Shown: in pieces, positions 1 to 15,236 of the stretch
How the letters are laid out: each line of letters begins with the position of its first letter
How positions within the stretch are numbered: the first letter of the stretch is position 1
Assembly: GCA_051294905.1 (NCBI GenBank)
Contig: CM119371.1
Location: forward strand, 558,001 to 622,000
Reading direction: 5' to 3'
DNA length: 64,000 nucleotides
Source of the DNA: Botryllus schlosseri
Lineage: Eukaryota
Notes under the pieces: generated by a model
Told to the model about the DNA's origin: nothing
The model's database searches: none
The model's input: only the letters and a program-made list of their open reading frames with translations
Made by a program: the position numbers and the translations under genes

Positions 1-88
1 AGAACCATCTTGAAATATGATTTGTGATTCAGTGCAATGCATTTATTGTGTGAATGTGAATGTTAATGTGATGTGTATGAAATTACAG

Positions 89-471
89 ATAACAGGCTTA
101 CAAACGATCGGAAAATCGTAAACACTAGATAGTGCTCGCATTGGGTTAATCTCAACGCAGTCAACTCGGTCTTTTCCACCTGGCCGTCGCCACGAGAGGA
201 TCTCGAATCTGCGCTCGTGAATATATTACCAATACACGTGTAAGTATACACTGATCTTATTCAATAGACCAAAGTTTGTGTTAACGCGATGTTTTCTTGC
301 TTCATCGAAACAGAGAAAGAGAAGAAGAATCAAGCCCAATCATCGAACTTATTGCATCGGTGAGTTCTCTGTTTTTTTACTACCTTAAGTTGGTGAACAT
401 AATTTTGAGGAAGGTTGTTTCTTTGTTTACCAGGTGAAAAAGAACTCAAGATTTCAAGGGAAAAAATATAA
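89..471 (+). other. Putative spliced upstream exons (about 89/133-239, 314-359, 434-471) of the Polinton early transcript
   Basis: Donors GTAAGT (240), GTGAGT (360), GTAAGT (472) and acceptors ending CAG at 313, 433, 540 define introns of 74, 74 and 69 nt. Confidence 0.6.
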
Positions 472-540
472 GTAAGTGTTACTATCTCGTTGATTATTAG
501 AATACAGAGTGTGAAATTGAAATCGAATTCAATGTTACAG

Positions 541-3500
541 ATGAGCCGTCGCAGAAGACACCGTATCCGTGAGAAAGCTGAATTTCCACCAGATATTGGT
601 GATGAACGTCAAGAAATTTTAACACAGAACTGGCAAGCCATAAAATCGTATGTAGCAAACATAGGCAGATCTCGAGTGGTGTACAATATTCGGATTATAA
701 ATCGTCAACTCTCAGCTGTTCGCGAGGACATCGAAGCGATATTCTTCTCTGAATCGTGTAGATTTAAAGTCAACTATTCATCTGGCTGTATTCTATACCA
801 CACCGAGACTCTAAGATATCGTTATTTTCATGCATCGTCAAATATCGATCGTGTTCTGGATATGCCATTGGCTATTTCATCATTGATACAGTTTGAAAAA
901 TTTGTAGAATCCATTAGATTGGAAACTGCATTTGATGTATTGCGTAAAGCCCGACCAGATACTAAATCACAGCCTGTTTGTCTAACAAATATACAGTTTT
1001 ACGTATTCCCTAGCGATAGGTTATTGATAGGGTGTACTGATGTTAATCTTCCTCTGTGGCTTACAAAATCGAAATGTGTCATGACACTACTTCATGATAA
1101 AAATCGTAATCGGTATAACGATAATCTGTGTGTATTTCGTTGCATTGGCCACTCGCTCGATCGTGATGCGAAATCATTGGCTGAACAGTATACCCAGGTT
1201 TATGGTGTGAACGTTGTTGGTTGTGTAACTTTTGAAATGTTACCTGACATCGAAAGATTGTTTGATGTAGCGATATCTATCTATCGTAAGACCGATGGTA
1301 AAGCTATTGCTGTCCGACGTAGTACTTATGTAGCCACTCCTGTTTATTTACACCTCGAAAATTCTCATGCTTGCTTGATAACTCAGATCAATCGATACCT
1401 CGAAAGCTATCATTGTGAATCTTGTGGAAAATTTTTCGATCTTGCAACTCATCTGACCAGGCACAACTGCATCACTGAACCTGTCGAGATATTTCCCGGC
1501 GGGATATATAGACCACCTTTGACGGTATTTGAACGAATGGAGATTGAAGGCATAATTGTCCCAAATCATTTACGTTTTTTCAAATATCGGATTGCCTTCG
1601 ATATCGAGAGTATGTTTCAACAATGTGATTTTGATCCCTCAGCTAAAACGACTTACGAGTGGAAGCATATTCCAATTTCCGTTAGTATATCATCAAATGT
1701 AGACGGGTATTTGGAACCACAGGTAATTGTTTCTAATGGTGATCCAATTCAGTTGTGTGAAGAGATGGTAGAGATTTTTCATACAATTCAGAGTCGATCC
1801 TTAAGTCTGTTGCTAGTTGAATACCGTCAATATCTGGATTTGTTTGAATCTAAAATCACAGAGATGAAAGTATTAGACCCCTCGGACAAGCCTTTACCAT
1901 TGGAACGTTTACAAGATGAATTCATGTGCTATCTAAGGCGAATACCAGTTATATCTTTTAATGGTGACAGATACGACTTGAACTGTCTTAAGGTATACTT
2001 GCTGCGTTTTTTCGTTGATGAAAACTTGAATGTTTTGAAGCGTGGTAACACATTTCTCTCGCTAACTACGAACAGGCTTCGTTTCCTCGATATCGTCAAT
2101 TACTTGGCACCTGGTTTTTCTTATGAAAAATATCTGAAAGCGTTCAAATGTAGTGGTGCAAAGGGTCATTTTCCATATGAATTTCTGACTAGTATTGAAC
2201 TGTTAGATTACCCTATGCTCCCGAATCATCAGTCATTTTATAGCTCGATAAAACGTTGTAATATATCGAAAGCTGATTATGAAAACAGCCTCAAGGTTTG
2301 GAATGATCATAATATGACATCGCTTCGTGACTATCTAAAATGGTACAATGCAATTGACACTCGCTACTTCATTGAAGGGTTAGAAAAGCAATTCGACTCT
2401 TTCAAGTCTCAATTTAATGTGGATATATTTAAAGAAGCTGTCTCGCTGCCGGGTGTTGTTTCGAGGCATATATTCAATTCCATTCCAAGGTGCTTCACCT
2501 TGTTCAGTGAAAAGCATAAAGACCTAGCTTTACTTTTTCGTGAAAATCTTGTCGGTGGCCCGTCAATCATCTTTAATCGGTATCAAAAAAGGGGGGAAAC
2601 TCGCATAAAACAACTTTTCTATGGTAAAGACGCAGAAATAACGCAGTATATAAGAGGGATGGACTGCAATTCGATGTACCTCCGAGCAATTTCGCTTGCG
2701 TCACCAGCAGGCTATCCCATTCATTGGAAAAGCCTTGATAACGAGTGTTCTAAATTTAAACCGGTCAAGACTGCTCCTACCTTTGGCCATAAAGCGCATG
2801 AATGGATACAGTACTATTCTCATGTTCATGGTGTACATGTCCACCATGCTTTCAACGGGTCAGAAGTAAGGATAGGCTCCAAGGGGTACCCTGCAGATGC
2901 ATTCTACCGTGACTCATCGGGTCGAGGCGTTGTGTTATCGTTTCTGGGGTGTTTCTTCCATTCTCACAGTAAATGCCGCTTTGCATATGACGACCCCGTG
3001 CGTCGAGAGCGAACAGAACGTGTACATTCATATTACAGAAGCCTAGGGCATCGTGTTATCACGATGTGGGAATGTCATTGGGATATCTCTAAACGTGAAA
3101 ACTCCGAAATCGCTCAATTTATAAACAGTGTTCGACCTCGATTGATTCGCAACAAGTCACTAACAGCTCATAAGTTGATTGAAATGGTGTTAGATGGAAC
3201 GTTCTTTGGGGCTTTACTGGTTGATATTTACACTCCTTCCCATTTGAAAAGATATTTTTCTGAACTGTGTCCAATATTCAAAAACACCCTTGTCTCTCGT
3301 AACGACCTGAAAGGCCACATGAAGCAATTTGCTATTGATCACAACCTATTACCAGCAGCTACACGTATGTTGGTTGCATCGTACTATGGCCAGAGAATTC
3401 TTTTGTCATCGACATTGATAAAATGGTATATAGAACATGGTCTAATTGTTTCACGGATATACGAGGCAATCGAATTTACAAAATCAACTTGTTTTGAAGG

Positions 3501-4393
3501 GTTCGCAAAAACTGTCTCTGACGCGAGACGGCTAGGTGACCGGGATCCGGACAAGGAAATTATTGCTTTGACTCATAAGCTTTCTGGTAATGTGATATAT
3601 GGGAAGATGATAATGAACCCCCTCAAATTTAAACGAACCAGTTTTTGTGATAAAAGTCAATTGCGGAGAAATGTCAATGATCCGTTTTTTGTGAATGTAG
3701 AAGACTTGACCTCTAATTTATACGAAGTAACCAAAAGGCCTAAAAAAAATAAAATGGAATACTTGCATTCACGTCGGATGGTTCGTTTATCAAAACGCGA
3801 AACAGCAATTGCTATCGTTTTTTTACGACTGTCTCTGTACGTACTTTGACGACAGGAAATGGGTAATGGCAATGTGTGACACGGACTCGATCTACATCGG
3901 GCATTCAGCTTCTTTCGATGATATGCTAATCCCAGAAAAAAGATCTGAATTTCATCTGAATTACGAAAAATGGTTCCCACGCTATTTTTGTGACGAACAT
4001 AGAAATGAGTTCCTGTCCAACCCAACCTCATTCGATAGAACGAGGCAATGCTGTAAAGATGTCTATGCATACTTTCTACAGCAACCTGGTTTGTTCAAGG
4101 TCGAATACGAGGACGGTACTGCATTTTGTGGTCTCCAATCAAAAAATTACTTTTGCGATGGTCCAAAACAAAAGTATGCCTCGAAAGGTCTTCAGAAATC
4201 TGGTCAAGTAAATTTTGAAACATTCCTTGAAGTATTGACATCTCAAAAACCTATGGGAGGTCATAATAGAGGGTTCAGAGTTCATAATAACGGTATTTAC
4301 ACGTACCAGCAGCATCGCGATACCTTGTCTTATTTTTACGCCAAGCGTCATGTTCTGGACGATGGCGTCACCACTATTCCCTTGAATCTGTAA
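541..4393 (+). pseudogene. pPolB: Protein-primed family B DNA polymerase (pPolB), one frameshift at the A8 run 3742-3749
   Basis: Exonuclease motifs AFDIES, FNGDRYD, YNAID; polymerase motifs DCNSMY, KLSGNVIYGK, CDTDS (3875-3889), KNY. Removing one A at 3742-3749 joins ORF 490..3849 to ORF 3809..4393 through KIKWNTCIHVGWFVYQNAKQQLLSFFYD. First ATG is at 541. Confidence 0.95.
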
Positions 4394-4445
4394 TGTGTAA
4401 TTGCTTTTGTATATTTCTGATCATGTTTTTTCTTGTTTTTCACAG

Positions 4446-4961
4446 ATGAATATTGCAAGTTCTTTCATCAAATCTGTTTTAATAGAGTTAGATTTGGATA
4501 CTTTGCATAAGCAAACCATTGGCTTGGAACAGGATTTAACGCAACACTCTATTGTCGGGACCCAGGACGAGCCACTCACCGGTACGATATCCGACCGTCA
4601 TTACAGAGAGCGCCTGAATCAGCTCGAACAAAGATGGAACTCTATTCGTGAAATATGCATGGAAGCACTACTACAACTCCGATTCCCAGACATTTTCAAT
4701 CGAGCCAAGCTGACGAATTATGTCGTTTTGGGTAAAACCAGGACTTGGATTCCACTTTTCGATTGGGAGGAAAAAAGAGCCAACTTCAAGAATTGTATGC
4801 GTGGGCGTTCCTTGCAGCTCTTTCTCGACCAGCATCGTGCCGCCAACTCTAAAAAACGATCTCATTCAGACTCGGAAAGCAGTGATGCTGGAACACAACC
4901 TTCTGAGTTGAGAAATGATGGCTTCCCCGATAACTATAACTGTGCCGATCCCAATTTGTGA
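4446..4961 (+). CDS. Polinton hypothetical protein A (helical, about 171 aa, basic/acidic low-complexity tail)
   Basis: Open frame from ATG 4446, preceded by a polypyrimidine tract and CACAG; similar to the spliced product of 5080..5543. Confidence 0.75.
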   Translation: MNIASSFIKSVLIELDLDTLHKQTIGLEQDLTQHSIVGTQDEPLTGTISDRHYRERLNQLEQRWNSIREICMEALLQLRFPDIFNRAKLTNYVVLGKTRTWIPLFDWEEKRANFKNCMRGRSLQLFLDQHRAANSKKRSHSDSESSDAGTQPSELRNDGFPDNYNCADPNL

Positions 4962-5079
4962 TATTTTGCTGTTTAGTGATAATGCTTATCAATTTTAGGT
5001 GTTCAAATGTAATATCTAACCGGGTTAAAGACCAGTTTTGTGCTCGGATGGTTTAATGTATTTGTGTTTTGTTTTACAG

Positions 5080-5538
5080 ATGGCTACTAACTACTTAAAA
5101 TCTATACTACAACATTCCAAACTGGATCAACTACGTGACAAGACACTGTGCCGTTATCACGATCGCATTCAAGTCGTCGACATGTATTTGAGACATGATA
5201 TATCGAATGAATTCTACAATCGATGCGTTTCAAGACAACGCGAGGATTTAGAACAATGCTCCCATGGTGAGATAGCATGTATGATTTTGTGTTCTCATGC
5301 TAGACATTTTCACAAATAACTTTCCGACACAACTCTAATATCATTTCATATCTAGACTGGGAACAACTGCTGGACGATCTTCAAAAAGCCTTCGTGACCT
5401 TGCAACTACCCTTGACGAAATTACAAACCAGTGATGAGGACTTTGTCACACGCGGCAAACTGCTGAATCGAACTTTGCTGGGACTATACATCCCACTTGA
5501 AGATGAATACAACAGTGGATTCTCCCAGTCCGCGGACT

Positions 5539-5543
<5 letters not shown>
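5080..5543 (+). CDS. Polinton hypothetical protein B, two exons (5080-5266, 5356-5543), paralog of protein A
   Basis: Intron GTGAGA (5267) ... CTCTAAT branch-like site ... TCTAG (5355). Splicing gives an open frame ...EQCSHDWEQLLDDLQKAFVTLQLP...FVTRGKLLNRTLLGLYIPLEDEY...TGA, which aligns with protein A. Confidence 0.72.

Positions 5544-5572
<29 letters not shown>
5543..5572. repeat. (AT)n microsatellite inside the Polinton, about 15 units
   Basis: Direct observation; followed by AATAAA at 5598-5603. Confidence 0.95.
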
Positions 5573-5577
<5 letters not shown>

Positions 5578-5610
5578 CATTCGTTTTTCGAGTTTTGAAT
5601 AAACAGCAAC

Positions 5611-6219
5611 ATGGAATTCAAGCATCCTTTCTCATTCATCCCATCCGGACCATCTCGTAGTGGTAAAACTACTTTCATCACTAAACTGATCAAGAATGCA
5701 GCCTCAATGATCAAACCTAATATTTCTAGAATCGTGTACTGCTATAATAATTATCAGAGTATTTTTGAGACCATGCCCCAGGTTGAATTTTACAATGGAT
5801 TGGAGATTTTGGAAGATCTTAAATCAAGTAACGAGGATGTATTGATAATAGTAGACGATTTTATGACTCAGACAGAAAAATTGGTAGAATATTTTATACG
5901 TATATCGCATCATAACCGAAAGTCAATAATATTCTGCACACAAAACTTTCATCATCAGGGCAAAGGCGCTCGCGACCTCAGTCTATCAGCTATGTATGTC
6001 TGCCTGTTTAAAAATCCCAGAGATCAGAACCAAATATCTGTCTTGGGGCGTCAGATGTACCCAAAGTCCAAGTTTCTAACAGAATGTTATAGAGACGCTG
6101 TCAAGAGACCTCATTCGTATTTGTGCCTCGATCTCACACAAGAGTGCCCCGATGATAGACGGGTCATGACCAATATATTTCCAGGCGAAACATTGACTAT
6201 TTACACTCAACCGGTATAA
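5611..6219 (+). CDS. A32/FtsK-like genome packaging ATPase
   Basis: Walker A GPSRSGKT, Walker B LIIVDD, ISHH and CTQN motifs, LFKNPRD; 202 aa intact. Confidence 0.95.
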   Translation: MEFKHPFSFIPSGPSRSGKTTFITKLIKNAASMIKPNISRIVYCYNNYQSIFETMPQVEFYNGLEILEDLKSSNEDVLIIVDDFMTQTEKLVEYFIRISHHNRKSIIFCTQNFHHQGKGARDLSLSAMYVCLFKNPRDQNQISVLGRQMYPKSKFLTECYRDAVKRPHSYLCLDLTQECPDDRRVMTNIFPGETLTIYTQPV

Positions 6220-6226
6220 ATACCGG
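6211..6226 (+). promoter_or_regulatory. Candidate TATA box within a short palindrome (CCGGTA-TAAA-TACCGG)
   Basis: TATAAATA at 6215-6222 overlaps the ATPase stop codon, about 30 nt before the ATG at 6251. Confidence 0.45.
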
Positions 6227-6250
6227 GGTGTACGCTGTTCTGGTTTCAAA

Positions 6251-6598
6251 ATGACTCCGATTCCGCGCAGAACAAGAGACCATTTGCCAACATTAGCATT
6301 CTTGCATCAAGCTAAACCCGCGATACGCAAGGAGATTTTATCTGGGGCTAGTGAAGGTCTAATACGTTGTATTTGTGAGTGTGCGAAAAATTTATTACAC
6401 GGAAATATACCGCTATCAGCGTCCCAGAGAAAACGCTTGTGTTGCCATAGGAACATCTTGAGGAAGCTTACCAACAAAGACGTTTCATTGCGCCGTAAAA
6501 GGACTCTTGTGACTCAAAATGGTGGGATGTTTATGTCTCTAATATCAAGTATACTCCCAGTAGTTACAGGATTACTCGGGAATTTATTTAAGAAATGA
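6251..6598 (+). CDS. Conserved small basic Polinton protein with QxGG motif and amphipathic C-terminus (putative virion precursor protein)
   Basis: ICECAKNLLHGNIPL, basic LRKL/RRKR stretch, QNGG followed by MFMSLISSILPVVTGLLGNLF. Confidence 0.75.
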   Translation: MTPIPRRTRDHLPTLAFLHQAKPAIRKEILSGASEGLIRCICECAKNLLHGNIPLSASQRKRLCCHRNILRKLTNKDVSLRRKRTLVTQNGGMFMSLISSILPVVTGLLGNLFKK

Positions 6599-7002
6599 CA
6601 CATTTCAAGAAAATTTACGTCACGCCGAATCCACTCAACCATGTCGACATTCAAAAACTGAATTCAGACATCGATAAACGTATATACGAAATATTACAAA
6701 TGGATATTCCGCGGGGTAAAAAATTGGCGTTATATAACGACGCGTTGAATCGGTTCCAGAACAGACACGATGTTCTTAATCAACCCATGAAAATTGATGT
6801 ACCAAATCAACCTAACCTGTTTTCTAATGCTGAATTGGATGCGTTACGACACATGATAAAAATCAAACCTGAATCTTCAAAGATCCCCGTACCGAACCAG
6901 TCACCTGCTAGACCCAGAACTAAAATCCCTTCGCCCCATGTCACAACGAAAAGGGGGCGGTCTATCAAGACACCGGCGCGATTCAAATGGAACGTTTACT
7001 GA
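6595..7002 (+). CDS. Conserved Polinton hypothetical protein, 135 aa
   Basis: IDKRIYEIL...KLALYNDALNRF helical N-terminus and C-terminal KWNVY; ATGA overlap with the upstream gene; position just before the integrase. Confidence 0.65.
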   Translation: MTHFKKIYVTPNPLNHVDIQKLNSDIDKRIYEILQMDIPRGKKLALYNDALNRFQNRHDVLNQPMKIDVPNQPNLFSNAELDALRHMIKIKPESSKIPVPNQSPARPRTKIPSPHVTTKRGRSIKTPARFKWNVY

Positions 7003-8014
7003 ATATTTCGCTCCGGATCGACCTGGTAGCTATCGTGGAGCGTATGTGTTCGGCAGGGGGCGCAATAGAGCCGCGGTAAAAGACTTTCTTAGGCGACACG
7101 AGACCTATACCAGACATTTCCCTGTCCGACAAAAGTTTCAACGTCCAAAAGTAATTACATCAGGTTTAGGTGTCCAATATCAAGCTGACCTCATGCACAT
7201 GGAAAACCTAGCATCGGAAAATGATGGTTTCAAATACATATTATTGGTTGTGGACATATTCAGTAAAATTCTATATCTTTTCCCGCTTCGAGATAAATCT
7301 GCAAAGGGTGTTATTCGATGTTTCAAAGAAATCTTTACCCAAATTAAACCCCACATTATTCAGAGCGACCAGGGAACTGAGTTTACAAACCGCTCCTTCC
7401 AGAGTTTTTTAAAACAGAACGGTGTAAAACACTTTTTCACACATAGCGAATTGAAGGCATCTATAGCCGAGCGTGCCATCAGAAGTGTGAAGCAAACACT
7501 ATTCCGGTACTTTACACATAATAAAACGTTAAATTACGTCAATGTTTTATCGGAAATATGTCTAGGATTTAACTCAACTTACCATACGAGTTTAGGCCGC
7601 GCTCCGGTTGATGTTAATTTTTCAAATCAAGAAGATGTCTTTCATCGATTATACGGTGATACCACACCAAAGCAGCCAACACTATCCGTTGGTACCCCTG
7701 TGAGGATTTCAAAAACACGACAACGATTCGTAAAATCGGCATTGGCTGGTTGGAGCGAAGAAATATTTTTCATTTCGAAATGTTTTTCTGGGGACCCGAT
7801 TAGTTATCAACTGAAAGATTATGCAAACGAAAATGTATCCGGCCGCTTTCAACGCGAAGAAATTCAACCTGTGATTATTGATAATGACATTTTCAACGTC
7901 GAAAAGATTCTGTCTACACGTAAGAAGGCCGGGAAAACCGAGTATCTGGTCAAATGGTCTGGATACCCCGAAAAATTTAATTCGTGGGTTTCGGATTACT
8001 ATATAAAGCCCTGA
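6938..8014 (+). CDS. Retroviral-like (rve) DDE integrase with C-terminal chromodomain
   Basis: YQADL, VVDIFSK, QSDQGTEF, IAERAIRSVK; C-terminal FNVEKILSTRKKAGKTEYLVKWSGYPEKFNSWV chromodomain. Exact start uncertain. Confidence 0.96.
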   Translation: MSQRKGGGLSRHRRDSNGTFTEYFAPDRPGSYRGAYVFGRGRNRAAVKDFLRRHETYTRHFPVRQKFQRPKVITSGLGVQYQADLMHMENLASENDGFKYILLVVDIFSKILYLFPLRDKSAKGVIRCFKEIFTQIKPHIIQSDQGTEFTNRSFQSFLKQNGVKHFFTHSELKASIAERAIRSVKQTLFRYFTHNKTLNYVNVLSEICLGFNSTYHTSLGRAPVDVNFSNQEDVFHRLYGDTTPKQPTLSVGTPVRISKTRQRFVKSALAGWSEEIFFISKCFSGDPISYQLKDYANENVSGRFQREEIQPVIIDNDIFNVEKILSTRKKAGKTEYLVKWSGYPEKFNSWVSDYYIKP

Positions 8015-8037
8015 GTAATGTTTTTTATATTGTAAAT

Positions 8038-8253
8038 ATGGATTCCCAGTCCACGTCAAGCCGCGTTACTGAATTCAAACTTGAAATAAAAAATCAGTGT
8101 GTATTTGTCGTACAAATTTTTATGCTAGTCGGAATAATCATTTTTTCGTTATATCAAATTTCTGTGAAACCCGATCGCGAAATATATTTAACGCTGTTAT
8201 CGAGCTGTCTAGGATATTTACTCCCACAACCGTCTCCTCATCGTGTGCGCTGA
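8038..8253 (+). CDS. Small two-helix membrane protein of Polinton type (71 aa)
   Basis: Hydrophobic VFVVQIFMLVGIIIFSLY and YLTLLSSCLGYLLPQP; TATATAAA at about 8000-8007 upstream and AATAAA at 8260-8265 downstream. Confidence 0.7.
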   Translation: MDSQSTSSRVTEFKLEIKNQCVFVVQIFMLVGIIIFSLYQISVKPDREIYLTLLSSCLGYLLPQPSPHRVR

Positions 8254-8265
8254 AAATACAATAAA

Positions 8266-9099
8266 ATGCTGTTAACCTTACCATCCAATGCTAGTATGTC
8301 AATTTTTGAAAATACACCATCAAATTTTGAAACAGAACTCTACAGTGAACTAGAAATGCCATAACACCTTGTCGGTCTTTCTGAAATAAGTTTTGAAAAT
8401 AATTTTCAACCCCGGATTGAAGTGGCAAGAAATACTATGGGGTTCAGATTTGGTGATGAAAATTCAGGTGTCAAGCAATATTATATTCCAGAAGGATCTT
8501 ATCACAATGTCGCGGAAATGCTAGAATCTTTTGAAAAATACTACATGGGTGAAATATTCATCATTCAAGGATATGACGAGTTTAGAATCGCTTTTCGAAA
8601 TTTACCATCGCACAGAGTTAGACACACGCGAAGTATATCGACAAATAATAACATCGGGAGTATGGTTACAAGACCGAAAGACCTTAACACCGAGAAATCA
8701 ATAGAGACTTACGGATTGTCACCTATTGGCCCCGTGTTGAGTAAATTAGCTTTTAAGCGCGTATATGCCCCGCATTCCACTATGCCGATAGAATTCATAT
8801 TTTCCCCTGCCGTGAAATTAGACCCAATCGATCAAATTTATGTCTATTCTGATTTGATTCAGCCACGACCCCATGGTAATCAGTTACAACCACTCTTACG
8901 AGTCATCACAGTGACATGTGAACCAAATCAGAATCAAACTAGTGTCTTTCATAAACCATACTATTTTCAGTTGGCGAAAAACAAATTTCGCCGAATAAGA
9001 ATATATTTACATGATAAATTTGGTAATCCAATTAAATTTCAAAAAGGACCTGTCACTGTCAGTCTTTTATTCCGCCGAAAAGCTGTGGACTCGATATGA
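8266..9099 (+). pseudogene. Minor capsid (penton-like) protein 1, in-frame TAA at 8362-8364
   Basis: N-terminus MLLTLPSNASMSIFENTPSNF...*HLVGLSEISF is in frame with ORF 8422..9099, which has YVYSDLIQP...GNQLQPLLRVI and IRIYLHDKFGNPIKFQKGPVTVSLLFR. Confidence 0.85.
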
Positions 9100-9773
9100 C
9101 ATACGTCACAATTTCTGGAGATCACGCGGGATTCTCAGTCGACCTTACCAAGACTATCATTTGCAATGAAATCTCACTTATAGACATAAGCTTTAATGTT
9201 GAGTTAAACAATCAAATTATAATTGAACGTGATGAAAAAATTTGGGAGTATCGTAATTCACAACAATTACTAGATACATACCTTACCCCCATTGGAAATT
9301 ATGCTACCCCGAAACAGTTGATGGATAGGATTTTATCTGAAAGATTTCCGTATAATACTGTTTATAACATAGAGAAAATCAGTGGAGAACTATTCCGAAT
9401 TCTAACCCCGATACATATTACAATCCACCCCAACAGTATTCTAGAAAAATATTTCAATGTCACACGCGACCTAACATCACGGTTATGTAATTCCACATTA
9501 ATCAGGTGTAAACCGGTGCCCACTGAGATAAGATATCTTTTTGTTTATTGTGACTCAGTCAAGCATCGTCACTTGGGTGATTATATGAGTCAACTACTTC
9601 GCGTTATTCAAATCAAAACCACTCCACGTTACCGCGAAGAGATCATTTATGAGAAACCGATATATTTTCCAGTATCAACAAATCACATCCAGAATATAAA
9701 AATCTCCATTAGAGACCAATTCGGTCAGTTGATCCAGGGTATACACACTACGTTGACACTTCATTTACGATGA
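9096..9773 (+). CDS. Minor capsid (penton-like) protein 2
   Basis: ISLIDISF; FVYCDSVKHRHLGDYMSQLLRVI; PIYFPV...IKISIRDQFGQLI...LTLHLR. Confidence 0.82.
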   Translation: MTYVTISGDHAGFSVDLTKTIICNEISLIDISFNVELNNQIIIERDEKIWEYRNSQQLLDTYLTPIGNYATPKQLMDRILSERFPYNTVYNIEKISGELFRILTPIHITIHPNSILEKYFNVTRDLTSRLCNSTLIRCKPVPTEIRYLFVYCDSVKHRHLGDYMSQLLRVIQIKTTPRYREEIIYEKPIYFPVSTNHIQNIKISIRDQFGQLIQGIHTTLTLHLR

Positions 9774-10162
9774 TTTTAACGCTGACCCATTCTAGGAATG
9801 GTATAGGTTTCCAACACTGGCTGTCCACTGTTAACGAAATCTCTACGAGATACCGTGAGATAGCGCTTATGGAGATGAATATGACATTGACCAAACCTAT
9901 ACCAGGACGATATTTGTTTGTCTATTGTAATATTATCAATCCACGATTGGTCGGGGACACATTTGCTAATTTACTCCGTGTCATCCCGTTACAAAATAAC
10001 ACCATGTCACAAAATTGGATATCGACGAATCCATATCATTTTTCGATATCGCAAGATGTTATACACTCCGTTTGTATTTCATTGAGAAATGAATTTGGTG
10101 ACCCTATAAATATAGACAACCAATCATTGCAAGTCACATTTAACATTAGGAAGCAATTATGA
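9770..10162 (+). CDS. Minor capsid (penton-like) protein 3, minimal form lacking the central insertion
   Basis: EIALMEM followed almost at once by FVYCNIINPRLVGDTFANLLRVI; ISLRNEFGDPI...VTFNIR; 130 aa. Confidence 0.8.
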   Translation: MILTLTHSRNGIGFQHWLSTVNEISTRYREIALMEMNMTLTKPIPGRYLFVYCNIINPRLVGDTFANLLRVIPLQNNTMSQNWISTNPYHFSISQDVIHSVCISLRNEFGDPINIDNQSLQVTFNIRKQL

Positions 10163-10533
10163 AAGTTGCGTACACCTGCGACCATCACTCGGTATACAAC
10201 CATTATAATCAAACAGGGAATGGATTTGGATATTTCGCTGGTGGCCACCAAACAGGGTCTGGTATTGGTAGCTTGTTTAAAACTCTTGGTCGTTTCGTGA
10301 CCACTGTTGTGAAATACGCTGGCGGACAATTGTTACGTACCGGGGGTGAGATAGCCAGAGATCTTTTGAACGGACACTCCATCAAGTCCAGTGCCCTCAA
10401 AAGAAGTAAGCAAGCTGGGACTCGCGTTATTGATCGAATTTTGAAACCCAACAATGGTATAAAAAGAAAGAAAAATACTAAATCAAACATTTCTAAGAAG
10501 CGACGCCGCAAAGAGAAGGACATCTTCGATTAA
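10159..10533 (+). CDS. Basic core/membrane-lytic-like Polinton virion protein
   Basis: QTGNG and QTGSG motifs, amphipathic GIGSLFKTLGRF helix, Lys/Arg-rich C-terminus ending DIFD; lies directly before the major capsid gene. Confidence 0.75.
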   Translation: MKVAYTCDHHSVYNHYNQTGNGFGYFAGGHQTGSGIGSLFKTLGRFVTTVVKYAGGQLLRTGGEIARDLLNGHSIKSSALKRSKQAGTRVIDRILKPNNGIKRKKNTKSNISKKRRRKEKDIFD

Positions 10534-10534
10534 C

Positions 10535-11805
10535 ATGATGATGCATGAAGATTCCCACGAATGTCATAATAACGGATTAAATATATTTAGTGTTCCTCAT
10601 ACCCAAACCTCGATAGAGAATTCACAATATGTCATCGTTAAACCACACAGTCTGGGAAATGTAATGGAAATTTCATTACCTAAAACAGACAGATACATCG
10701 ACCTGCAAAACTCATTCTTACGATTATGCCTAAAGCTTACTAAACACGATGGAACAGATTTAGCAGATGCCGCGGAAGTAGCATTTGTCAACAATATATT
10801 AGATTCTCTTTTCAAACAAATTGATGTAACTATCGGAAATGAAGTAATCACCAATTCAGACAATTGCCACGCATACAAAGCGTATATCTATCGACTGTTG
10901 AATGACACACCCGCTGGATCCAACAGTTTTATTCGTGGCCAGGGCTTCCACAAAGACACCGCAAAATTTATGGATACTATAGGCGCTGAAAACACAGGGT
11001 ACGTAACGCGAAAAGGTCTTACGAAAAGTAGTAAAGCATTGGAGTTGATTGGTAAAATTAGAATGGGACTTTTCGAGCAATCAAGATGTATGCTGGATAA
11101 TGTCGATATGAAATTACGATTCACATGTAACGACGACAAATTCTGCCTTATTGGAACCACCGAAGACGTGAAAATTGTAATCACGGATATGGAACTATAT
11201 GTCAAACAAATGAAAATTACAGAGAGTGTCAGCTTAGCTCACAAATCGATATTACAGAAATCGAATGCTAAATATCCGTGGTCTCGTCTTCAAATGTCAA
11301 CTCATACATTCGCAGGGGGACTGACGAAGCTTGACCGCGAGTTAGTTAGCGGGACTTTGCCGAAAAAAATTGTAATTGGCTTGGTTGAAACCACAGCGTT
11401 TAACGGGGCTAGAAACAAAAACCCATTCAACTTTAAACATTATGACATTCAGAATATGTCATTGGCTGTTTGTGGCAATCAATTACGAGGTAGAGAATTC
11501 CATTTCAATTTCGAAAAATCGGGGGTTTAGAAGGTTATATGATGCTCTTTTCTGAGACAGGGAGGTGGGAAGGTGAGGCACCTTTAAATATATCACCTAC
11601 CGACTATATGAATGGTTATACTCTGTTCGTGTTTGATTTGACCCCAGATAATAGCTTAGGGTGTTACCAACTACACAAAACCGGAACCGTACACCTGGTT
11701 TTGACAACCTCCAAACCACTACCAACGTCTGTGACATTGCTGTGCTTAAAAGAGTACCAACACCTCTTACAACTGAACCAGAAAAGACAGGTCGTGGAAA
11801 TATGA
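10535..11805 (+). pseudogene. Major capsid protein (double jelly-roll), one frameshift near the G5 run 11521-11525
   Basis: LNIFSVPHTQTSI, VNNILDSLFKQIDV, AFNGARNKNPFNFKHYD, GYTLFVFDLTPD. Adding one G joins 10535..11530 to 11539..11805 as FEKSGGLEGYMMLFSETG. Confidence 0.93.
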
Positions 11806-12248
11806 ACACGGATGAGATTAATAATATTCTCTTCAATCATCCTGACACGAAAAATCTATTCATAGGGACTTATGCTGTGGATCAGCTACCGAAAAAACCA
11901 AAATACCAGAAATTTGCTGTTGTCATCAATTACGACGAACCAACGTTACCAGGTTCTCATTGGGTGTGTGTATATAGCGATAACTCCACTCATTTTCATG
12001 ATTCACTTGGTTTCCCACCCCTAAAACCTCAGATAGTCGAGTTTCTAGGTTCAGAGGACTTCACCGTTACCAGGCAACAGCTTCAAAGTAAAAAATCTGA
12101 TATGTGTGCTGATCATTGTATTTCATATTTGATTAAAAGAGCTCAAGGTTTTTCAACTGAACAGTATCTGAATTATTTTGGTGATAAAAAATATGAGAAT
12201 GATAAAATTGTTCGCTTTTTCGTAAAGAGCTTGATTACAGGTGGATAA
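11802..12248 (+). CDS. Adenain-like cysteine protease (capsid maturation), 148 aa
   Basis: FIGTYAVDQLP, NYDEPTLPGSHWV (His), HDSLG (Asp), LQSKKSDMC (Gln, Cys); starts at an ATGA overlap with the capsid stop. Confidence 0.93.
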   Translation: MNTDEINNILFNHPDTKNLFIGTYAVDQLPKKPKYQKFAVVINYDEPTLPGSHWVCVYSDNSTHFHDSLGFPPLKPQIVEFLGSEDFTVTRQQLQSKKSDMCADHCISYLIKRAQGFSTEQYLNYFGDKKYENDKIVRFFVKSLITGG

Positions 12249-12252
12249 TAAA
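12247..12252 (+). terminator. Polyadenylation signal AATAAA after the last Polinton gene
   Basis: AATAAA overlaps the protease stop codon. Confidence 0.55.
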
Positions 12253-12270
12253 CACATTCAATGTATACAT

Positions 12271-12577
12271 CCGTGATTCGTGATATACTTAACACAGTGA
12301 GTCAGTTTTGCGCTGAGCGTTGACGGGAAGCAATTCGCGTAGTGATTCAGTCGACAGGATACCATAGTCATTTGTCTCCGCAGAATATGTAGGTCACTTC
12401 GCATTAAAACACCTGTTTTCAAAATCGATCGCGGGAAGCGCACAATGACGCTTTTTCGAAGCTCCATAGGCCGATTTTCGACCACTAGCTAGCTCAAAAT
12501 GCACCGTTTCTGACTTCCGAAATGCAACATTCTTGTTTCCGGTATTTTACGAATCACGGGACCACAATATAACTACT
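12271..12577. repeat. Probable right terminal inverted repeat of the Polinton (inner boundary uncertain)
   Basis: Non-coding, CpG-rich segment after the last gene, ending CACAATATAACTACT. The partner TIR is outside the window. Confidence 0.65.
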
Positions 12578-12862
12578 ATAGTCTCTGTAAGGGGAAAGTG
12601 CGACAGCGTTTCTATCGAATATTTTCCCAAGGAAACAGGGGAAACGGGGGTTTTTACTGTTGTTGTTGTTGTTGCCGTCACGGTAGCTCGAGTTATTGCA
12701 TTATGACGTAACGCTCTTCACAGAGAGTTTAATGTTAGGTCACGGGAGAGTGATGCGGCGACCATTCATTGCGTATAAAAAAAAAATATAGTGATTGTGG
12801 GAAGGAGTGACGACTGAATTCAAATGCCCGATTGATATTCATCCGCCATAGATTTTGGTGTT

Positions 12863-13186
12863 GAGATGAGAATGATTAGGTTAGGATTTGGGAAAACAGG
12901 ATTTGAGAAATTTTGGTGGATTAGGATTCTGATTGGATTTACCGATTTTCGGAAGAATATGTCCTGGGGCGAATGGCGACAAAGTTTTTTCGTCCTATCT
13001 ATGATACTTCGTGGATTTTGAGCATTCTATTTATTTTTTACAGAATTATCGGCATTGGACATAGGCTTTCTAAGTGGAATGCTAAGTTTGAATCGGATTA
13101 GGATTAGGACTAGGATTGTAGTATACAGAATTTCTGGATCGGAAAGGATTGGATGAGGACATAGAAGTTTTGAATCCGCTCATCTC
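12863..13186. mobile_element. Degenerate MITE with GGATTA subterminal repeats
   Basis: GAGATGAG...CTCATCTC ends, many GGATTA/GGATT units; related fragment near 25535-25620. Confidence 0.4.
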
Positions 13187-13334
13187 AGGTTTATTGGCGC
13201 CATTTTGCAGTATCTATCTCGTAAAGATGGTTGTTTATGGTATTATTGTCGGTTATACTTTCAATATTTGATATCATACCATCACCATATGAATCGCGAA
13301 ATATCTATTTAAATCATGGACGAAACATGGATGC

Positions 13335-13440
13335 GGCGAGTTGGGATAATCCACAGCTACAACACCTATGTGTTGTCGGTTCGAGTCCGACTGAGGTCGA
13401 CTCCAGAATTCTCTTACCTAGGTGTTGCAGGTTTTTCTAT
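13335..13440 (+). mobile_element. tRNA-derived SINE head (family 1)
   Basis: B-box GGTTCGAGTCC (13378-13388) followed by GACTGAGGTCGACTCCAGAATT; similar copies at about 39610-39722 (-) and 51567-51690 (+). Confidence 0.55.
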
Positions 13441-13776
13441 TGTGGAAACCAGAGGTTTCCAGAATGCTTTGTATTTGCCATTTGGAAATTGCGTTGGACA
13501 TGGTATGGCTGGAGACCGCGTATTGACTTAGTTGAGTGAGGCAGTTTGGCTGAGTTCGTGACTGGAGATGGATGCGAGTGACTATGTCTCTATGTTTGGT
13601 AGCGTGAAGCATAAGTAGTTGGGAGCAGTAGCGTGAAGTAGAGGCTGTATAAGGCAGCTAGGGCGAGAAGTAGTAGGTAGTTGGTCTTGTATTTGCAGGC
13701 TTGAGTTGGACGTACCGATCGGAATCTCTGCTGGGGCACGGCCTAGTCACTCACGGTGCTACGCGAGCACCTAGGG

Positions 13777-15236
13777 CAAGGGTCGGCAACCTACGGCCCG
13801 CGGGCCGGATCCGGCCTGCCAAGCGAAATCGTCCGGCCTGCGAGATAATAATTAGTTATCACAAGACTACGGCCCGCCGTTTCACAATGCTTTTCAGTAG
13901 AAGTAGAGTAGAATAGATCAGTGCTTATCAATCTGGTATATCTCGCAACCGAAAATTTACCATACTTTTTAGCGAGTTTACCGATCGGGTTTGACAATAA
14001 AAGTGTCCTTCCTCTGCTTCAAAAACGCTTGGAACATCTCAGACGCAATGACAAAATCTCAAACTTACACTGTTTAATTATAGATAACTAGCCTCCGTAG
14101 ATTAGTTATCCATAATTTAATTCCCAAAAGGCATAGTGCGCCAAGACAACAAACCTGAAGTGTTTTGGCCACAATGATGAACACTGTTAATATGATTTTG
14201 TCTCAAAAACTGAATCACCAACATTGTTACGCCAAATATTACTAGAAGCATAGAGTCAATATGGCGATGTAATGTATATCTGCCCTGTTCGTGCATTAAG
14301 TCGAGAAGCTATACTTGCACTAGTCTATGAACTGAGAAATGGAATAGCAGCTTTCCTCGAAAATACGAATATCGCCGACTCATAATCTTATAATCGAAAA
14401 TGGGTAACTAATCTTGCTCTCCTGGTACATTTAACGTCTCATCTGAACAAAGTGAATTTCCAACTTCGAGGGGACAACGACTGAATACATGAGATGTTAA
14501 GGCACATTCGAAACAAATCTGCGTCTCGGAGAATTTCAACAGTACAAAGAAAATTATGCTCACTTTCTTATACTGGAGAGAAAACCTAGTAACAATGCTA
14601 TATTTGTAACTGTGATACGAAATTTAATTACTGAATATTCACCAGCTTTACCGACATTCCTTCAATACAAAATAAATTCTGAATATTCAGTACTCCATTT
14701 AATGTGGACGCCAATAGCAATGCCTGAAAATTTCAAATGGGCATTTTTGAAATGCGATGCAGTTGGTTGAATGAAAAATTTCATACAAAGGGCATATCGC
14801 TGCATGACTTTGATAAAGAGTACGTTCTTGAAATTTATCTTTATCCCAGCTTGTCCAACAATGCAAAAGACATTGGCATCGATTTTTGGTAGCACGTACG
14901 CATGTGAGCAAGAGTTTTGAACAATAAAATTCACGAAGAGCAAGCTAAGATCACGTATTTTGGACGCCCATTTAGAATATGGTCTGATTCTTGCTTCATT
15001 TGACTTGTTGTCAGAAGTTGAAAACCTTTCACAAAGCAAGCTGCGTCAATTGTCACATTTATTCTGCGTTGTTGAAGTGTAAATACATGTGTTTTGTGAT
15101 TGGTAGGGTTGAGATTGCAGCAATGTAGGATAATATACCGAAGTAAGCGTAAAATATTGTATTAAGAAGAATTCCGACCCACCCAGTTGCATACTCGAAA
15201 TTTGGCCCGTGACTAGCAAAAGGTTGCCGATCCCTG
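13777..15236 (+). mobile_element. Decayed hAT (Buster/SPIN-like) DNA transposon with transposase remnants
   Basis: TIRs CAAGGGTCGGCAACC / GGTTGCCGATCCCTG; TSD ACCTAGGG/ACCTAAGG; remnants WVTNLALLVHLTSHLNKVNFQLRG (from 14401) and LASIFGSTYACEQEF*TIKFTKSKLRSRILDAHL (about 14873-14975). Confidence 0.88.

What the first reader, a model, noticed from the sequence alone, without database searches (positions are those of the whole stretch)
89..5082. Adenovirus-like shared spliced leader feeding three Polinton genes through acceptors placed exactly at the ATG
Seen in sequence: three consecutive genes begin with an acceptor-like ACAG immediately followed by ATG (TGTTACAG|ATG 541, TTTTTCACAG|ATG 4446, TTTTGTTTTACAG|ATG 5080). 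Upstream of pPolB are three consensus donors (240, 360, 472) giving uniform 74/74/69-nt introns. Established: adenoviruses express gene blocks by splicing one leader to alternative acceptors. Inference: one early promoter, with the donor at 472 joined alternatively to 541, 4446 or 5080 (skipping the whole polymerase), or spliced-leader trans-splicing if the host has it. Polintons are usually annotated as simple ORF arrays, so this regulatory layer would be missed.
Basis: partly seen in the sequence, partly recalled or inferred. Interest (0 to 1): 0.8.

Follow-up and report, generated by a model that had tools for sequence, protein, structure and literature searches.

The report
Polinton genes capped by host spliced leader
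A virus-like Polinton transposon in a sea-squirt genome has start codons placed directly after splice acceptors, and RNA reads show the host's own spliced leader joined there by trans-splicing rather than an adenovirus-style shared viral leader.

Summary
The sequence observation holds. AG|ATG sits at 541, 4446 and 5080, and GTRAGT donors at 240, 360 and 472 give 74, 74 and 69-nt introns. This is far beyond chance.

RNA reads decide the interpretation. At 4446 (4 reads, run X20) and 5080 (288 reads, run X24) the reads carry one non-genomic 5' extension. With the AG it reads as the 25-nt spliced leader (SL) published for stolidobranch ascidians. That sequence is absent from the window. So these two acceptors are SL trans-splice sites, and the mature 5' UTR is the SL alone.

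- No 471^4446 or 471^5080 joint was listed.
- In X24, summed depth is about 1.6 on the leader against about 290 on gene 3. The pPolB bins from 821 to 4100 are at 0.
- Leader intron 360-433 has thin RNA support: 1 read and 1 contig.
- The gene-3 intron 5267-5355 has strong support: 288 reads.
- The acceptor at 541 is untested.

Its fallback, SL trans-splicing, is shown. A Ciona-type operon is plausible but inferred. Most reads are only 90-95% alike, so they come from sibling copies.

The parts
89..239 (+). Putative leader exon 1 of the pPolB mRNA. Its 5' limit is unknown. It follows an acceptor-like TTACAG at 83-88.
   Evidence: No ATG in this exon; 7 ATG in 1-88. X24 summed depth about 1.6 in bin 1-410. 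The exon boundary at 89 was not tested by reads.
240..313 (+). Predicted leader intron 1, 74 nt, GTAAGT...CAG
   Evidence: Sequence only. No joint listed.
314..359 (+). Leader exon 2, 46 nt, no ATG
   Evidence: Its 3' end is defined by the 359^434 joint.
360..433 (+). Leader intron 2, 74 nt, GTGAGT...CAG, removed in RNA
   Evidence: Joint 358->433, 'GT..AG (cut +1)': 1 read in X24 and 1 contig in X1 at depth 2.6.
434..471 (+). Leader exon 3, 38 nt, no ATG. It ends in a stop codon in phase with pPolB.
472..540 (+). Predicted leader intron 3, 69 nt, GTAAGT...ACAG. Its acceptor abuts the pPolB ATG.
   Evidence: Sequence only. No reads cover it in X20 or X24.
541..4393 (+). Protein-primed family-B DNA polymerase (pPolB). 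The reading frame is broken in this copy between about 3,740 and 3,866 (ORFs 541-3849 and 3866-4393).
   Evidence: Pfam DNA_pol_B_2, E 3.8e-6, 26.5 bits against cut-off 25.8. ORF table. X24 depth is 0 over 821-4100.
4394..4445 (+). 52-nt spacer with a T-rich tract and the SL trans-splice acceptor AG at 4444-4445. No A[AT]TAAA.
   Evidence: Loose end 'before 4444', 4 reads in X20, agreement 1.0, sequence is the SL. No poly(A) signal.
4446..4961 (+). Gene 2: 171 aa, single exon, no recognisable family. Expressed as an SL-capped mRNA.
   Evidence: X24 depth 24.1+24.8 in bin 4511-4920. No homologues; two marginal hits only.
4962..5079 (+). 118-nt spacer with a T-rich tract and the SL trans-splice acceptor AG at 5078-5079. 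No A[AT]TAAA.
   Evidence: Loose end 'before 5078', 288 reads in X24, agreement 0.85, sequence is the full SL behind a template-switch oligo end. X24 depth is 10 at 5052. No poly(A) signal.
5080..5543 (+). Gene 3: exons 5080-5266 and 5356-5543 with an 89-nt GT..AG intron at 5267-5355. 124 aa when spliced. The most strongly expressed part of the element in X24.
   Evidence: Joint 5265->5355, 'GT..AG (cut +1)', 139+149 reads in X24. A variant of the same joint from a diverged copy has 80+67 reads in X24 and is in X1 contig 4. The spliced ORF is open and the unspliced frame stops at codon 79. Depth 140.5+152.2.
5598..5603 (+). The only canonical AATAAA in the spacers of this gene block. It lies after gene 3 and directly before a CAG (5604-5606) and the ATPase ATG at 5611.
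   Evidence: X24 depth falls from about 239 (bin 5331-5740) to 0 (from 5741).
5611..6219 (+). A32-like packaging ATPase, the next gene. An acceptor-like CAG lies 4 nt before its ATG; this was not tested.
   Evidence: Pfam Pox_A32, E 3.6e-5, 23.8 bits against cut-off 22.8. No reads in X20 or X24 from bin 5741 on.

Best explanation
The window's first 12.3 kb are a Polinton/Maverick integrated in the genome of a stolidobranch ascidian, a host that does spliced-leader (SL) trans-splicing.

Shown:
- The ACAG|ATG sites at 4446 and 5080 are SL trans-splice acceptors. The host's 25-nt SL is joined so that its last base is followed directly by the A of the start codon.
- The mature mRNAs of the two small genes after the polymerase therefore have the SL as their entire 5' UTR. 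They are capped and translatable independently of whatever lies upstream.
- Gene 3 also carries an ordinary 89-nt cis intron that is removed.

Shown thinly: one of the three short introns in the non-coding leader upstream of pPolB is removed in RNA.

Inferred:
- The other two leader introns are real. Because each leader donor is paired with an acceptor 69-74 nt away, no free donor is left, and the far acceptors at 4445 and 5079 are orphan acceptors that take the SL.
- The spacers lack AATAAA while one follows gene 3. This matches the Ciona type of operon, in which the upstream mRNA is polyadenylated at the AG of the next cistron's acceptor. At least gene 2 and gene 3 are therefore probably processed from a common precursor.
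- In the tissues sampled, transcription feeding genes 2 and 3 does not come from the pPolB leader. It starts in or after the 3' part of the polymerase gene, or in copies that lack the polymerase.
For: 1. One search, loose ends. X20 (stranded RNA-seq, raw reads) has 4 reads 'before 4444' whose consensus ends ...GGAGTATTTGGTTGTATTA, agreement 1.0. X24 (RNA-seq, raw reads, a different study) has 288 reads 'before 5078' whose consensus ends ...GATTGGAGTATTTGGTTGTATTA, agreement 0.85. In both cases the aligned part begins with the AG that precedes ATG.
2.. With that AG the sequence is identical to 'Chordata 1', the 25-nt SL consensus in Table 1 of PMC3795323. The paper's supplementary files list it for Botryllus schlosseri, Boltenia villosa, Halocynthia roretzi, Polyandrocarpa misakiensis and, with one mismatch, Herdmania curvata.
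3.. The SL has 0 matches in the window at up to 3 mismatches, so it is not encoded beside the genes.
4. In X24 the SL is directly preceded by ...ACATGGG, and in X20 by ...TCTTCCGATCT. I recognise these from memory as a template-switch oligo end and an Illumina adapter end. That places the SL at the 5' end of the cDNA.
5. X20 depth is mostly 'first mate on -' (for example 2.4 against 0.2 in bin 5331-5740). For the usual stranded library this means + strand RNA.
6. In X24, 288 SL-bearing reads at 5080 compare with a depth of only 10 at 5052, inside the spacer.
7. Cis introns. Joint 5265->5355, GT..AG, 288 reads. Joint 358->433, GT..AG, 1 read plus 1 X1 contig.
8. No A[AT]TAAA in 4394-4445 or 4962-5079; AATAAA at 5598. 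In Ciona operons the poly(A) of the upstream mRNA is added at the G of the downstream acceptor, and 16 of 18 operons lack AATAAA there (passages of PMC1488885).
9. Some RNA crosses the spacers: X24 depth is 6 at 4436 and 10 at 5052. X1 contig 4 (2,017 nt) runs from 4157 to 6255 with the gene-3 intron removed.
Against: - Only 95 of 2,616 X24 reads are 99% or more alike and 1,950 are 90-95% alike. The SL-capped mRNAs therefore come mostly from sibling copies, and none can be assigned to this copy.
- The acceptor at 541 and leader introns 1 and 3 have no read evidence at all.
- A pPolB-led operon is not supported in X24: bins 821-4100 have depth 0, while gene 2 has about 49 and gene 3 about 290.
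- Poly(A) sites were not mapped. Table 6 lists no ends, and 223 loose-end rows were not shown.
- X1 is only guessed to be RNA, so its bridging contig could instead be DNA of an intron-less sibling.
- X17 (organism B) laid 0 reads and is no test.
- The host assignment rests on SL identity alone, because no genome is held.
Confidence: 0.85

Rival explanations
1. One early promoter produces a multi-exon leader whose last donor (472) is cis-spliced alternatively to the acceptors at 541, 4446 or 5080, as in the adenovirus major late unit.
For: Three strong donors and a non-coding, ATG-free leader exist. One leader intron is spliced. All three acceptors abut an ATG. The leader is barely expressed in the runs laid, so a state in which it is active was not sampled. 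Joints seen in fewer than 3 reads are not listed.
Against: No 471^4446, 471^5080 or 471^541 joint is listed in any of the 3 runs that laid reads or contigs. At 5080 the consensus of 288 loose ends is the host SL, agreement 0.85. Leader depth is about 1.6 against about 290 for gene 3 in X24. Each leader donor has its own acceptor 69-74 nt away.
Confidence: 0.05
2. pPolB, gene 2 and gene 3 form one SL-resolved three-gene operon. It is transcribed from the promoter upstream of the leader, and all gene 2 and gene 3 mRNA derives from that precursor.
For: Same strand, with 52- and 118-nt stop-to-acceptor spacers. No AATAAA until after gene 3. Both downstream cistrons are SL-capped. X1 contig 4 bridges 4157-6255, and X1 covers all 30 bins. 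This matches the Ciona operon pattern.
Against: In X24 the pPolB bins 821-4100 have depth 0, against about 49 for gene 2 and about 290 for gene 3. The leader has about 1.6. X1 is only guessed to be RNA, and a contig across two genes does not show a single transcript.
Confidence: 0.3
3. The SL-capped, highly expressed transcripts come from solo or domesticated copies of genes 2 and 3 that now behave as host genes. They say little about how intact Polintons express themselves.
For: 1,950 of 2,616 X24 reads are only 90-95% alike, and 76% of what was laid runs on into unlike sequence. Flanking Polinton genes are at depth 0 in X24 and at or near 0 in X20.
Against: At least one diverged sibling (X1 contig 4) keeps the pPolB 3' end, gene 2, gene 3 and ATPase in the same order. 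The window copy, inside a Polinton, has both acceptors intact. Short mRNAs with an SL, an intron and a poly(A) tail naturally give many partly fitting reads.
Confidence: 0.25
4. The AG|ATG and GT motifs are chance features of AT-rich spacers in a decaying element.
For: This copy has broken reading frames.
Against: Motif statistics and direct use of two acceptors and two introns in RNA.
Confidence: 0.01

Closest known systems
SL-resolved operons without intercistronic DNA in the ascidian Ciona intestinalis (passages of PMC1488885 and PMC2760879)
   Same: Same-strand, closely packed genes. Downstream cistrons receive the single host SL at an AG acceptor. No AATAAA before the internal boundaries. 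Single-exon or exon-poor genes.
   Different: The unit is part of a virus-like transposon, not a host gene cluster. Poly(A) addition at the acceptor AG was not shown here. The first cistron (pPolB) is silent in the RNA runs in which the downstream genes are abundant. The acceptor abuts the start codon exactly, so no gene-specific 5' UTR is left.
Adenovirus major late transcription unit with tripartite leader (recalled, not from a call)
   Same: A multi-exon, non-coding leader upstream of a block of genes in a related virus lineage. Acceptors lie just before the ORFs.
   Different: The sequence found on the downstream mRNAs is the host's trans-spliced leader, not the element's own leader exons. 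No leader-to-distal-acceptor joints were listed.
SL-carrying transposon transcripts in Hydra (passages of bioRxiv 10.1101/2024.03.13.584568)
   Same: Transposable-element mRNAs use the host's SL trans-splicing. About 30% of TE Iso-Seq reads carry an SL, and full-length CR1 and Tc1 transcripts are shown with one.
   Different: A different host phylum and different element classes. In the passages I read, Maverick is named only among the expressed families and is not shown with an SL. No arrangement of consecutive acceptors placed at start codons is described there.
Polinton/Maverick elements
   Same: pPolB, rve integrase, A32-like ATPase and a block of small structural-looking ORFs, all on one strand.
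   Different: The integrase carries a chromodomain. No terminal inverted repeats were found in the window. Capsid and protease assignments are not significant here. The early genes have host-type introns and SL acceptors.

Membership tests
SL trans-spliced mRNA of a tunicate host | mRNA 5' end carries the host SL sequence, which is not encoded next to the gene | tested here: met
   Loose ends at 4444 (4 reads, X20) and 5078 (288 reads, X24) equal the published stolidobranch SL. The SL has 0 matches in the window at up to 3 mismatches.
SL trans-spliced mRNA of a tunicate host | The junction lies at a canonical 3' splice acceptor (pyrimidine tract + AG) | tested here: met
   TTTTTTCTTGTTTTTCACAG|ATG and TTTGTGTTTTGTTTTACAG|ATG. 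The aligned part of the reads starts at the AG shared by the SL and the genome.
SL trans-spliced mRNA of a tunicate host | An SL RNA gene with a donor site is present in the host genome | not testable with these tools
   No genome is held for this window, and there is no SL copy in the 64 kb.
Ciona-type SL-resolved operon | Downstream cistrons are SL trans-spliced | tested here: met
   for genes 2 and 3.
Ciona-type SL-resolved operon | Poly(A) of the upstream mRNA is added at the G of the downstream acceptor AG (no intercistronic DNA) | not tested
No 3' ends are listed (table 6: none; 223 loose-end rows not shown).
Ciona-type SL-resolved operon | No canonical AATAAA within 40 nt upstream of the internal boundaries | tested here: met
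   No A[AT]TAAA in 4394-4445 or 4962-5079. The criterion comes from passages of PMC1488885.
Ciona-type SL-resolved operon | A polycistronic precursor from one promoter | tested here: inconclusive
   X24 depth is 6 at 4436 and 10 at 5052, and X1 contig 4 spans 4157-6255. But depth over 821-4100 in X24 is 0, and X1 is only guessed to be RNA.
Adenovirus-type shared cis-spliced leader | The same virus-encoded leader exons are found on several mRNAs through alternative acceptors | tested here: not met
   No 471^4446, 471^5080 or 471^541 joints are listed. The 5' ends are the host SL. Leader depth is about 1.6 against about 290. Caveat: joints seen in fewer than 3 reads are not listed.
Polinton/Maverick | Protein-primed family-B DNA polymerase | tested here: met
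   PF03175, E 3.8e-6, 26.5 bits against cut-off 25.8.
Polinton/Maverick | Retroviral-type (rve) integrase | tested here: met
   PF00665, E 1e-14, plus Chromo, E 9.8e-10, in 6938-8014.
Polinton/Maverick | FtsK/A32-type packaging ATPase | tested here: met
   PF04665 Pox_A32, E 3.6e-5, 23.8 bits against cut-off 22.8.
Polinton/Maverick | Double jelly-roll major capsid protein and adenain-like protease | tested here: inconclusive
   ORF 10535-11530 hits Capsid_N only at E 0.054, below the cut-off. ORF 11802-12248 has no meaningful hit. PDB sequence searches gave nothing significant.
Polinton/Maverick | Terminal inverted repeats | tested here: not met
   No inverted repeat joins the left end to 12.2-14 kb. 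The left end may lie before the window's first base.

The most novel reading that the evidence does not exclude
A Polinton has rebuilt its early genes around its host's SL trans-splicing. Acceptors sit exactly at the AUG, so the host SL supplies the whole 5' UTR, including an A at -3. The internal boundaries carry no poly(A) signal, as in host operons. The result is two small orphan genes expressed at least 100-fold above the polymerase and capsid genes, possibly as maintenance or latency genes of the integrated virus. As far as my searches reach, this would be the first described case of a virus-like DNA element whose gene architecture is fitted to SL trans-splicing.
Probability: 0.4. Interest if true: 0.75.

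Novelty: new variant of a known kind. Interest (0 to 1): 0.6.

Why it matters
Polintons are usually annotated as plain ORF arrays, and how they express a dense one-strand gene set in an animal nucleus is largely unknown. Here RNA reads show a concrete answer for two genes: the element borrows the host's spliced leader, with the acceptor placed at the start codon.

- It is a clear case of a virus-like element adapting to a host-specific mRNA-processing pathway.
- It gives a simple sequence signature for annotating Polinton genes in trans-splicing hosts such as tunicates, nematodes, cnidarians, rotifers and flatworms: a pyrimidine tract followed by AG|ATG.
- It singles out two orphan genes that are transcribed while the replication and capsid genes are silent. 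These are candidates for functions in persistence.

Searches for 'Polinton' or 'Maverick' with 'trans-splicing', 'spliced leader', 'ascidian' and 'SL1' found no description of this. One search, on endogenous viral elements with spliced leader, returned one review, which I did not open.

Tried and rejected
- Own genome: not held, so sibling copies could not be aligned.
- Terminal inverted repeats: none found.
- The look-up of sequencing runs: no RNA holder listed. The best share of words was 0.41.
- X17 laid 0 reads, so it is no test.
- Sibling fragments in 13,001-64,000: no tblastn or blastn hit.
- pPolB relatives with DNA context: none in viral contigs and none in metagenome contigs.
- Gene 2 identity:
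  - Pfam gave nothing, even at E 5.
  - The search for homologous proteins: 0 of 44 candidates scored.
  - ESM Atlas: no usable hit.
  - Exhaustive phmmer: 2 marginal hits (E 2.2e-4 and 7.2e-4), each as several stretches in 1,091- and 725-aa proteins. I did not follow them up.
  - AlphaFold2 single-sequence model: mean pLDDT 42.6, unusable, so no fold search was run.
- Gene 2 and gene 3 as paralogues, which I suspected by eye: BLASTP E 0.86 and 1.8, not supported.
- Leader exons as a coding N-terminal extension of pPolB: rejected. There are stops in all frames and a stop directly before the ATG.
- A donor-like GT at the pPolB stop codon spliced to 4445 to fuse pPolB with gene 2: rejected from reading, because the joined frame would stop at once.
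- Rfam at gathering threshold on 1-14,000: 0 matches.
- tRNA-like stretch seen by eye near 13.3 kb: ARAGORN found none.
- Earlier findings of this scan: three look-ups, nothing returned.
- Paper PMC2860165 (Ciona SL-mRNA survey) is not held, so how often host acceptors abut the ATG could not be checked.

Full report
**What is in the sequence.**
The first 12.3 kb of the window are a one-strand gene array of Polinton/Maverick type.
- A protein-primed B-family polymerase lies at 541-4393 (Pfam DNA_pol_B_2, E 3.8e-6). Its frame is broken in this copy between about 3,740 and 3,866.
- Two small ORFs of no known family follow: gene 2 at 4446-4961 and gene 3 at 5080-5543.
- Next come an A32-like ATPase at 5611-6219 (E 3.6e-5) and an rve integrase with a chromodomain at 6938-8014 (E 1e-14 and 9.8e-10).
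- A tight block of ORFs runs on to 12,248.
- Capsid and protease assignments stay below significance.
- No terminal inverted repeats were found. The left end may lie before base 1.

**The observation.**
- GTAAGT at 240, GTGAGT at 360 and GTAAGT at 472 are each followed 69-74 nt later by a pyrimidine-rich CAG.
- ACAG|ATG sits at 541, 4446 and 5080.

This is not chance.
- 5 of 2,425 ATGs in the window have a pyrimidine-rich CAG directly before them, and three of the five are these gene starts.
- Three GTRAGT fall in 452 nt where 0.20 are expected.
- The 235 nt that would remain as leader exons hold no ATG against 4.4 expected. The 88 nt before them hold seven.
- The leader cannot be coding. There are stops in all frames, and one stop directly precedes the ATG at 541.
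- Of the 16 gene starts I listed in the element, only the first three have AG|ATG.

**The RNA evidence.**
No genome is held for the window, so I went to public reads. No run holds more than 0.41 of the sampled words, and none is on record as an RNA holder. Raw RNA-seq runs with the same species label were offered.

I laid four runs on 1-12,300 at 90% likeness.
- X17 (organism B) gave 0 reads and is no test.
- X20 gave 46 reads of 12.9 million records read.
- X24 gave 2,616 of 10.0 million.
- X1 (contigs, only guessed to be RNA) gave 151 contigs covering all 30 bins.

Two loose ends decide the matter.
- In X20, 4 reads stop fitting just before 4444. Upstream they read ...TCTTCCGATCT GGAGTATTTGGTTGTATTA.
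- In X24, 288 reads stop fitting just before 5078. Upstream they read ACATGGG GATTGGAGTATTTGGTTGTATTA.
- In both cases the fitting part starts with the AG that precedes the ATG.

The same foreign sequence thus sits at two different acceptors, in two libraries from two studies. From memory, TCTTCCGATCT is an Illumina adapter end and ACATGGG is the end of a template-switch oligo. That places the foreign sequence at the very 5' end of the cDNA.

**What the foreign sequence is.**
A full-text search for part of it found one paper.
- Table 1 of PMC3795323 lists GATTGGAGTATTTGGTTGTATTAAG as the 25-nt 'Chordata 1' spliced-leader consensus.
- Its supplementary files 1 and 2 give the species as Botryllus schlosseri, Boltenia villosa, Halocynthia roretzi, Polyandrocarpa misakiensis and, with one mismatch, Herdmania curvata.
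- All of these are stolidobranch ascidians.
- The SL ends in AG, which explains why the aligner carried the reads two bases into the genomic ACAG.
- The SL has no match in the 64 kb at up to 3 mismatches.

The acceptors at 4446 and 5080 are therefore SL trans-splice sites of an ascidian host. The mature mRNAs begin with the SL and continue directly with AUG.

The adenovirus-like idea predicts junctions 471^4446 and 471^5080 and leader exons as abundant as the genes they feed.
- No such joint is listed.
- In X24 the leader bin 1-410 has depth 0.91+0.72, and bin 411-820 has 0.23+0.06.
- The pPolB bins from 821 to 4100 are at 0.
- Gene 2 has 24.1+24.8, and gene 3 has 140.5+152.2.
- At 5052, 28 nt before the acceptor, depth is 10 against 288 SL-bearing reads.

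So at most a percent or so of gene-3 mRNA could carry the element's own leader. The limit is that joints seen in fewer than 3 reads are not listed, and no sample with an active pPolB was seen in raw reads.

The leader itself looks real.
- The joint 358->433 (GT..AG with the cut one base on, which is intron 360-433) is seen in 1 X24 read and 1 X1 contig.
- Introns 240-313 and 472-540 and the acceptor at 541 have no read evidence either way.
- Gene 3 has an ordinary 89-nt intron (5267-5355) removed in 288 X24 reads. A variant of the same joint from a diverged copy appears in 147 more reads and in X1 contig 4.
- The spliced ORF is open for 124 codons, while the unspliced frame stops at codon 79.

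**How it most likely works.**
Shown: host SL trans-splicing at AG|ATG gives genes 2 and 3 their own capped mRNAs.

Inferred:
- Each leader donor pairs with the acceptor 69-74 nt downstream. No donor is left free, so the distant acceptors are orphan acceptors that take the SL.
- The block resembles Ciona operons. There, downstream cistrons receive the one host SL, the upstream mRNA is polyadenylated at the G of the next acceptor's AG, and 16 of 18 such boundaries lack AATAAA (passages of PMC1488885; PMC2760879).
- In this element the two internal spacers (52 and 118 nt) have no A[AT]TAAA. The only AATAAA follows gene 3, at 5598.
- Some RNA crosses the spacers (depth 6 at 4436 and 10 at 5052), and X1 contig 4 runs from 4157 to 6255.

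Against one pPolB-led operon stands the complete absence of pPolB reads in X24. I therefore commit to this: genes 2 and 3 are SL-capped units, probably a two-gene operon. In the sampled tissues their precursor starts in or after the 3' part of the polymerase gene, or in copies without it. A three-gene operon from the leader promoter gets about 0.3.

**Caveats.**
- Only 95 of 2,616 X24 reads are 99% or more alike and 1,950 are 90-95% alike. The expressed copies are mostly siblings, and the window copy, which has broken frames, may be silent.
Diverged copies keep and use the acceptor at gene 3 and the gene-3 intron.
- Whether the expressed copies sit in full Polintons is open.

**Comparison with what is known.**
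- SL addition to transposon transcripts is reported for Hydra. About 30% of TE Iso-Seq reads carry an SL, and CR1 and Tc1 are shown (passages of bioRxiv 10.1101/2024.03.13.584568).
- Ascidian SL operons are well described.
- I found no description of Polinton or Maverick genes receiving an SL, or of start codons placed at SL acceptors in such an element. One search, on endogenous viral elements with spliced leader, returned one dinoflagellate genomics review, which I did not open. The Polinton trans-splicing paper returned concerns a different phenomenon in C. elegans.
- I file this as a new variant of a known kind.

**The two SL-fed genes.**
They have no detectable relatives, and the fold model was unusable. 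Their function is unknown. Their expression while replication and capsid genes are silent suggests a role in the integrated state. That is speculation.

Noticed in passing
window 83-89: The 88 nt before the putative leader hold 7 ATG and end in TTACAG| at 88. The pPolB leader may therefore itself begin at an acceptor, either cis or SL. Nine X24 reads run over the ends of the laid stretch.
   Followed up: partly
window 8437-10162: Three consecutive ORFs (8437-9099, 9096-9773, 9770-10162) are tandem paralogues over their C-terminal 75-86 residues (BLASTP E 1e-11 to 1e-14). They have no family hit.
   Followed up: partly
window 6595-10535: In the later gene block the ORFs meet in ATGA stop/start overlaps at 6595, 9096, 9770 and 10159, and none has AG|ATG. 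How these ORFs are translated in an animal cell is unexplained.
   Followed up: no
window 6938-8014: The integrase carries a C-terminal chromodomain (Pfam Chromo, E 9.8e-10). Its ORF overlaps the preceding ORF 6595-7002 by 65 nt.
   Followed up: no
window 4687: A diverged sibling (X1 contig 4) carries 27 extra bases inside gene 2. That is a multiple of three, so gene 2 varies in length between copies.
   Followed up: no
window 5543-5580: A (TA)n microsatellite lies directly after the gene-3 stop codon, inside its likely 3' UTR. The read-laying tool skipped 5535-5588 as a repeat.
   Followed up: no
window 5598-5613: AATAAACAG|CAACATG: a poly(A) signal, an acceptor-like CAG and the ATPase start codon sit within 16 nt. 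This could be a further processing boundary, but no reads lie beyond it in X20 or X24.
   Followed up: no
window 34974-37688, and 15.9-17.2 kb against 39.5-41.3 kb: A foldback-like structure has 363-nt arms, 97% complementary and 2 kb apart. Separately, two inverted copies (81-89%) of a repeat at least 1.3 kb long lie about 23-25 kb apart. Both are unrelated host repeats.
   Followed up: no
window 11891-12300: X1 depth rises to 108 at the right end of the element, against 9-59 elsewhere. Low read depth reappears there in X20 and X24. This could be a terminal repeat shared by many copies or a separate transcript.
   Followed up: no
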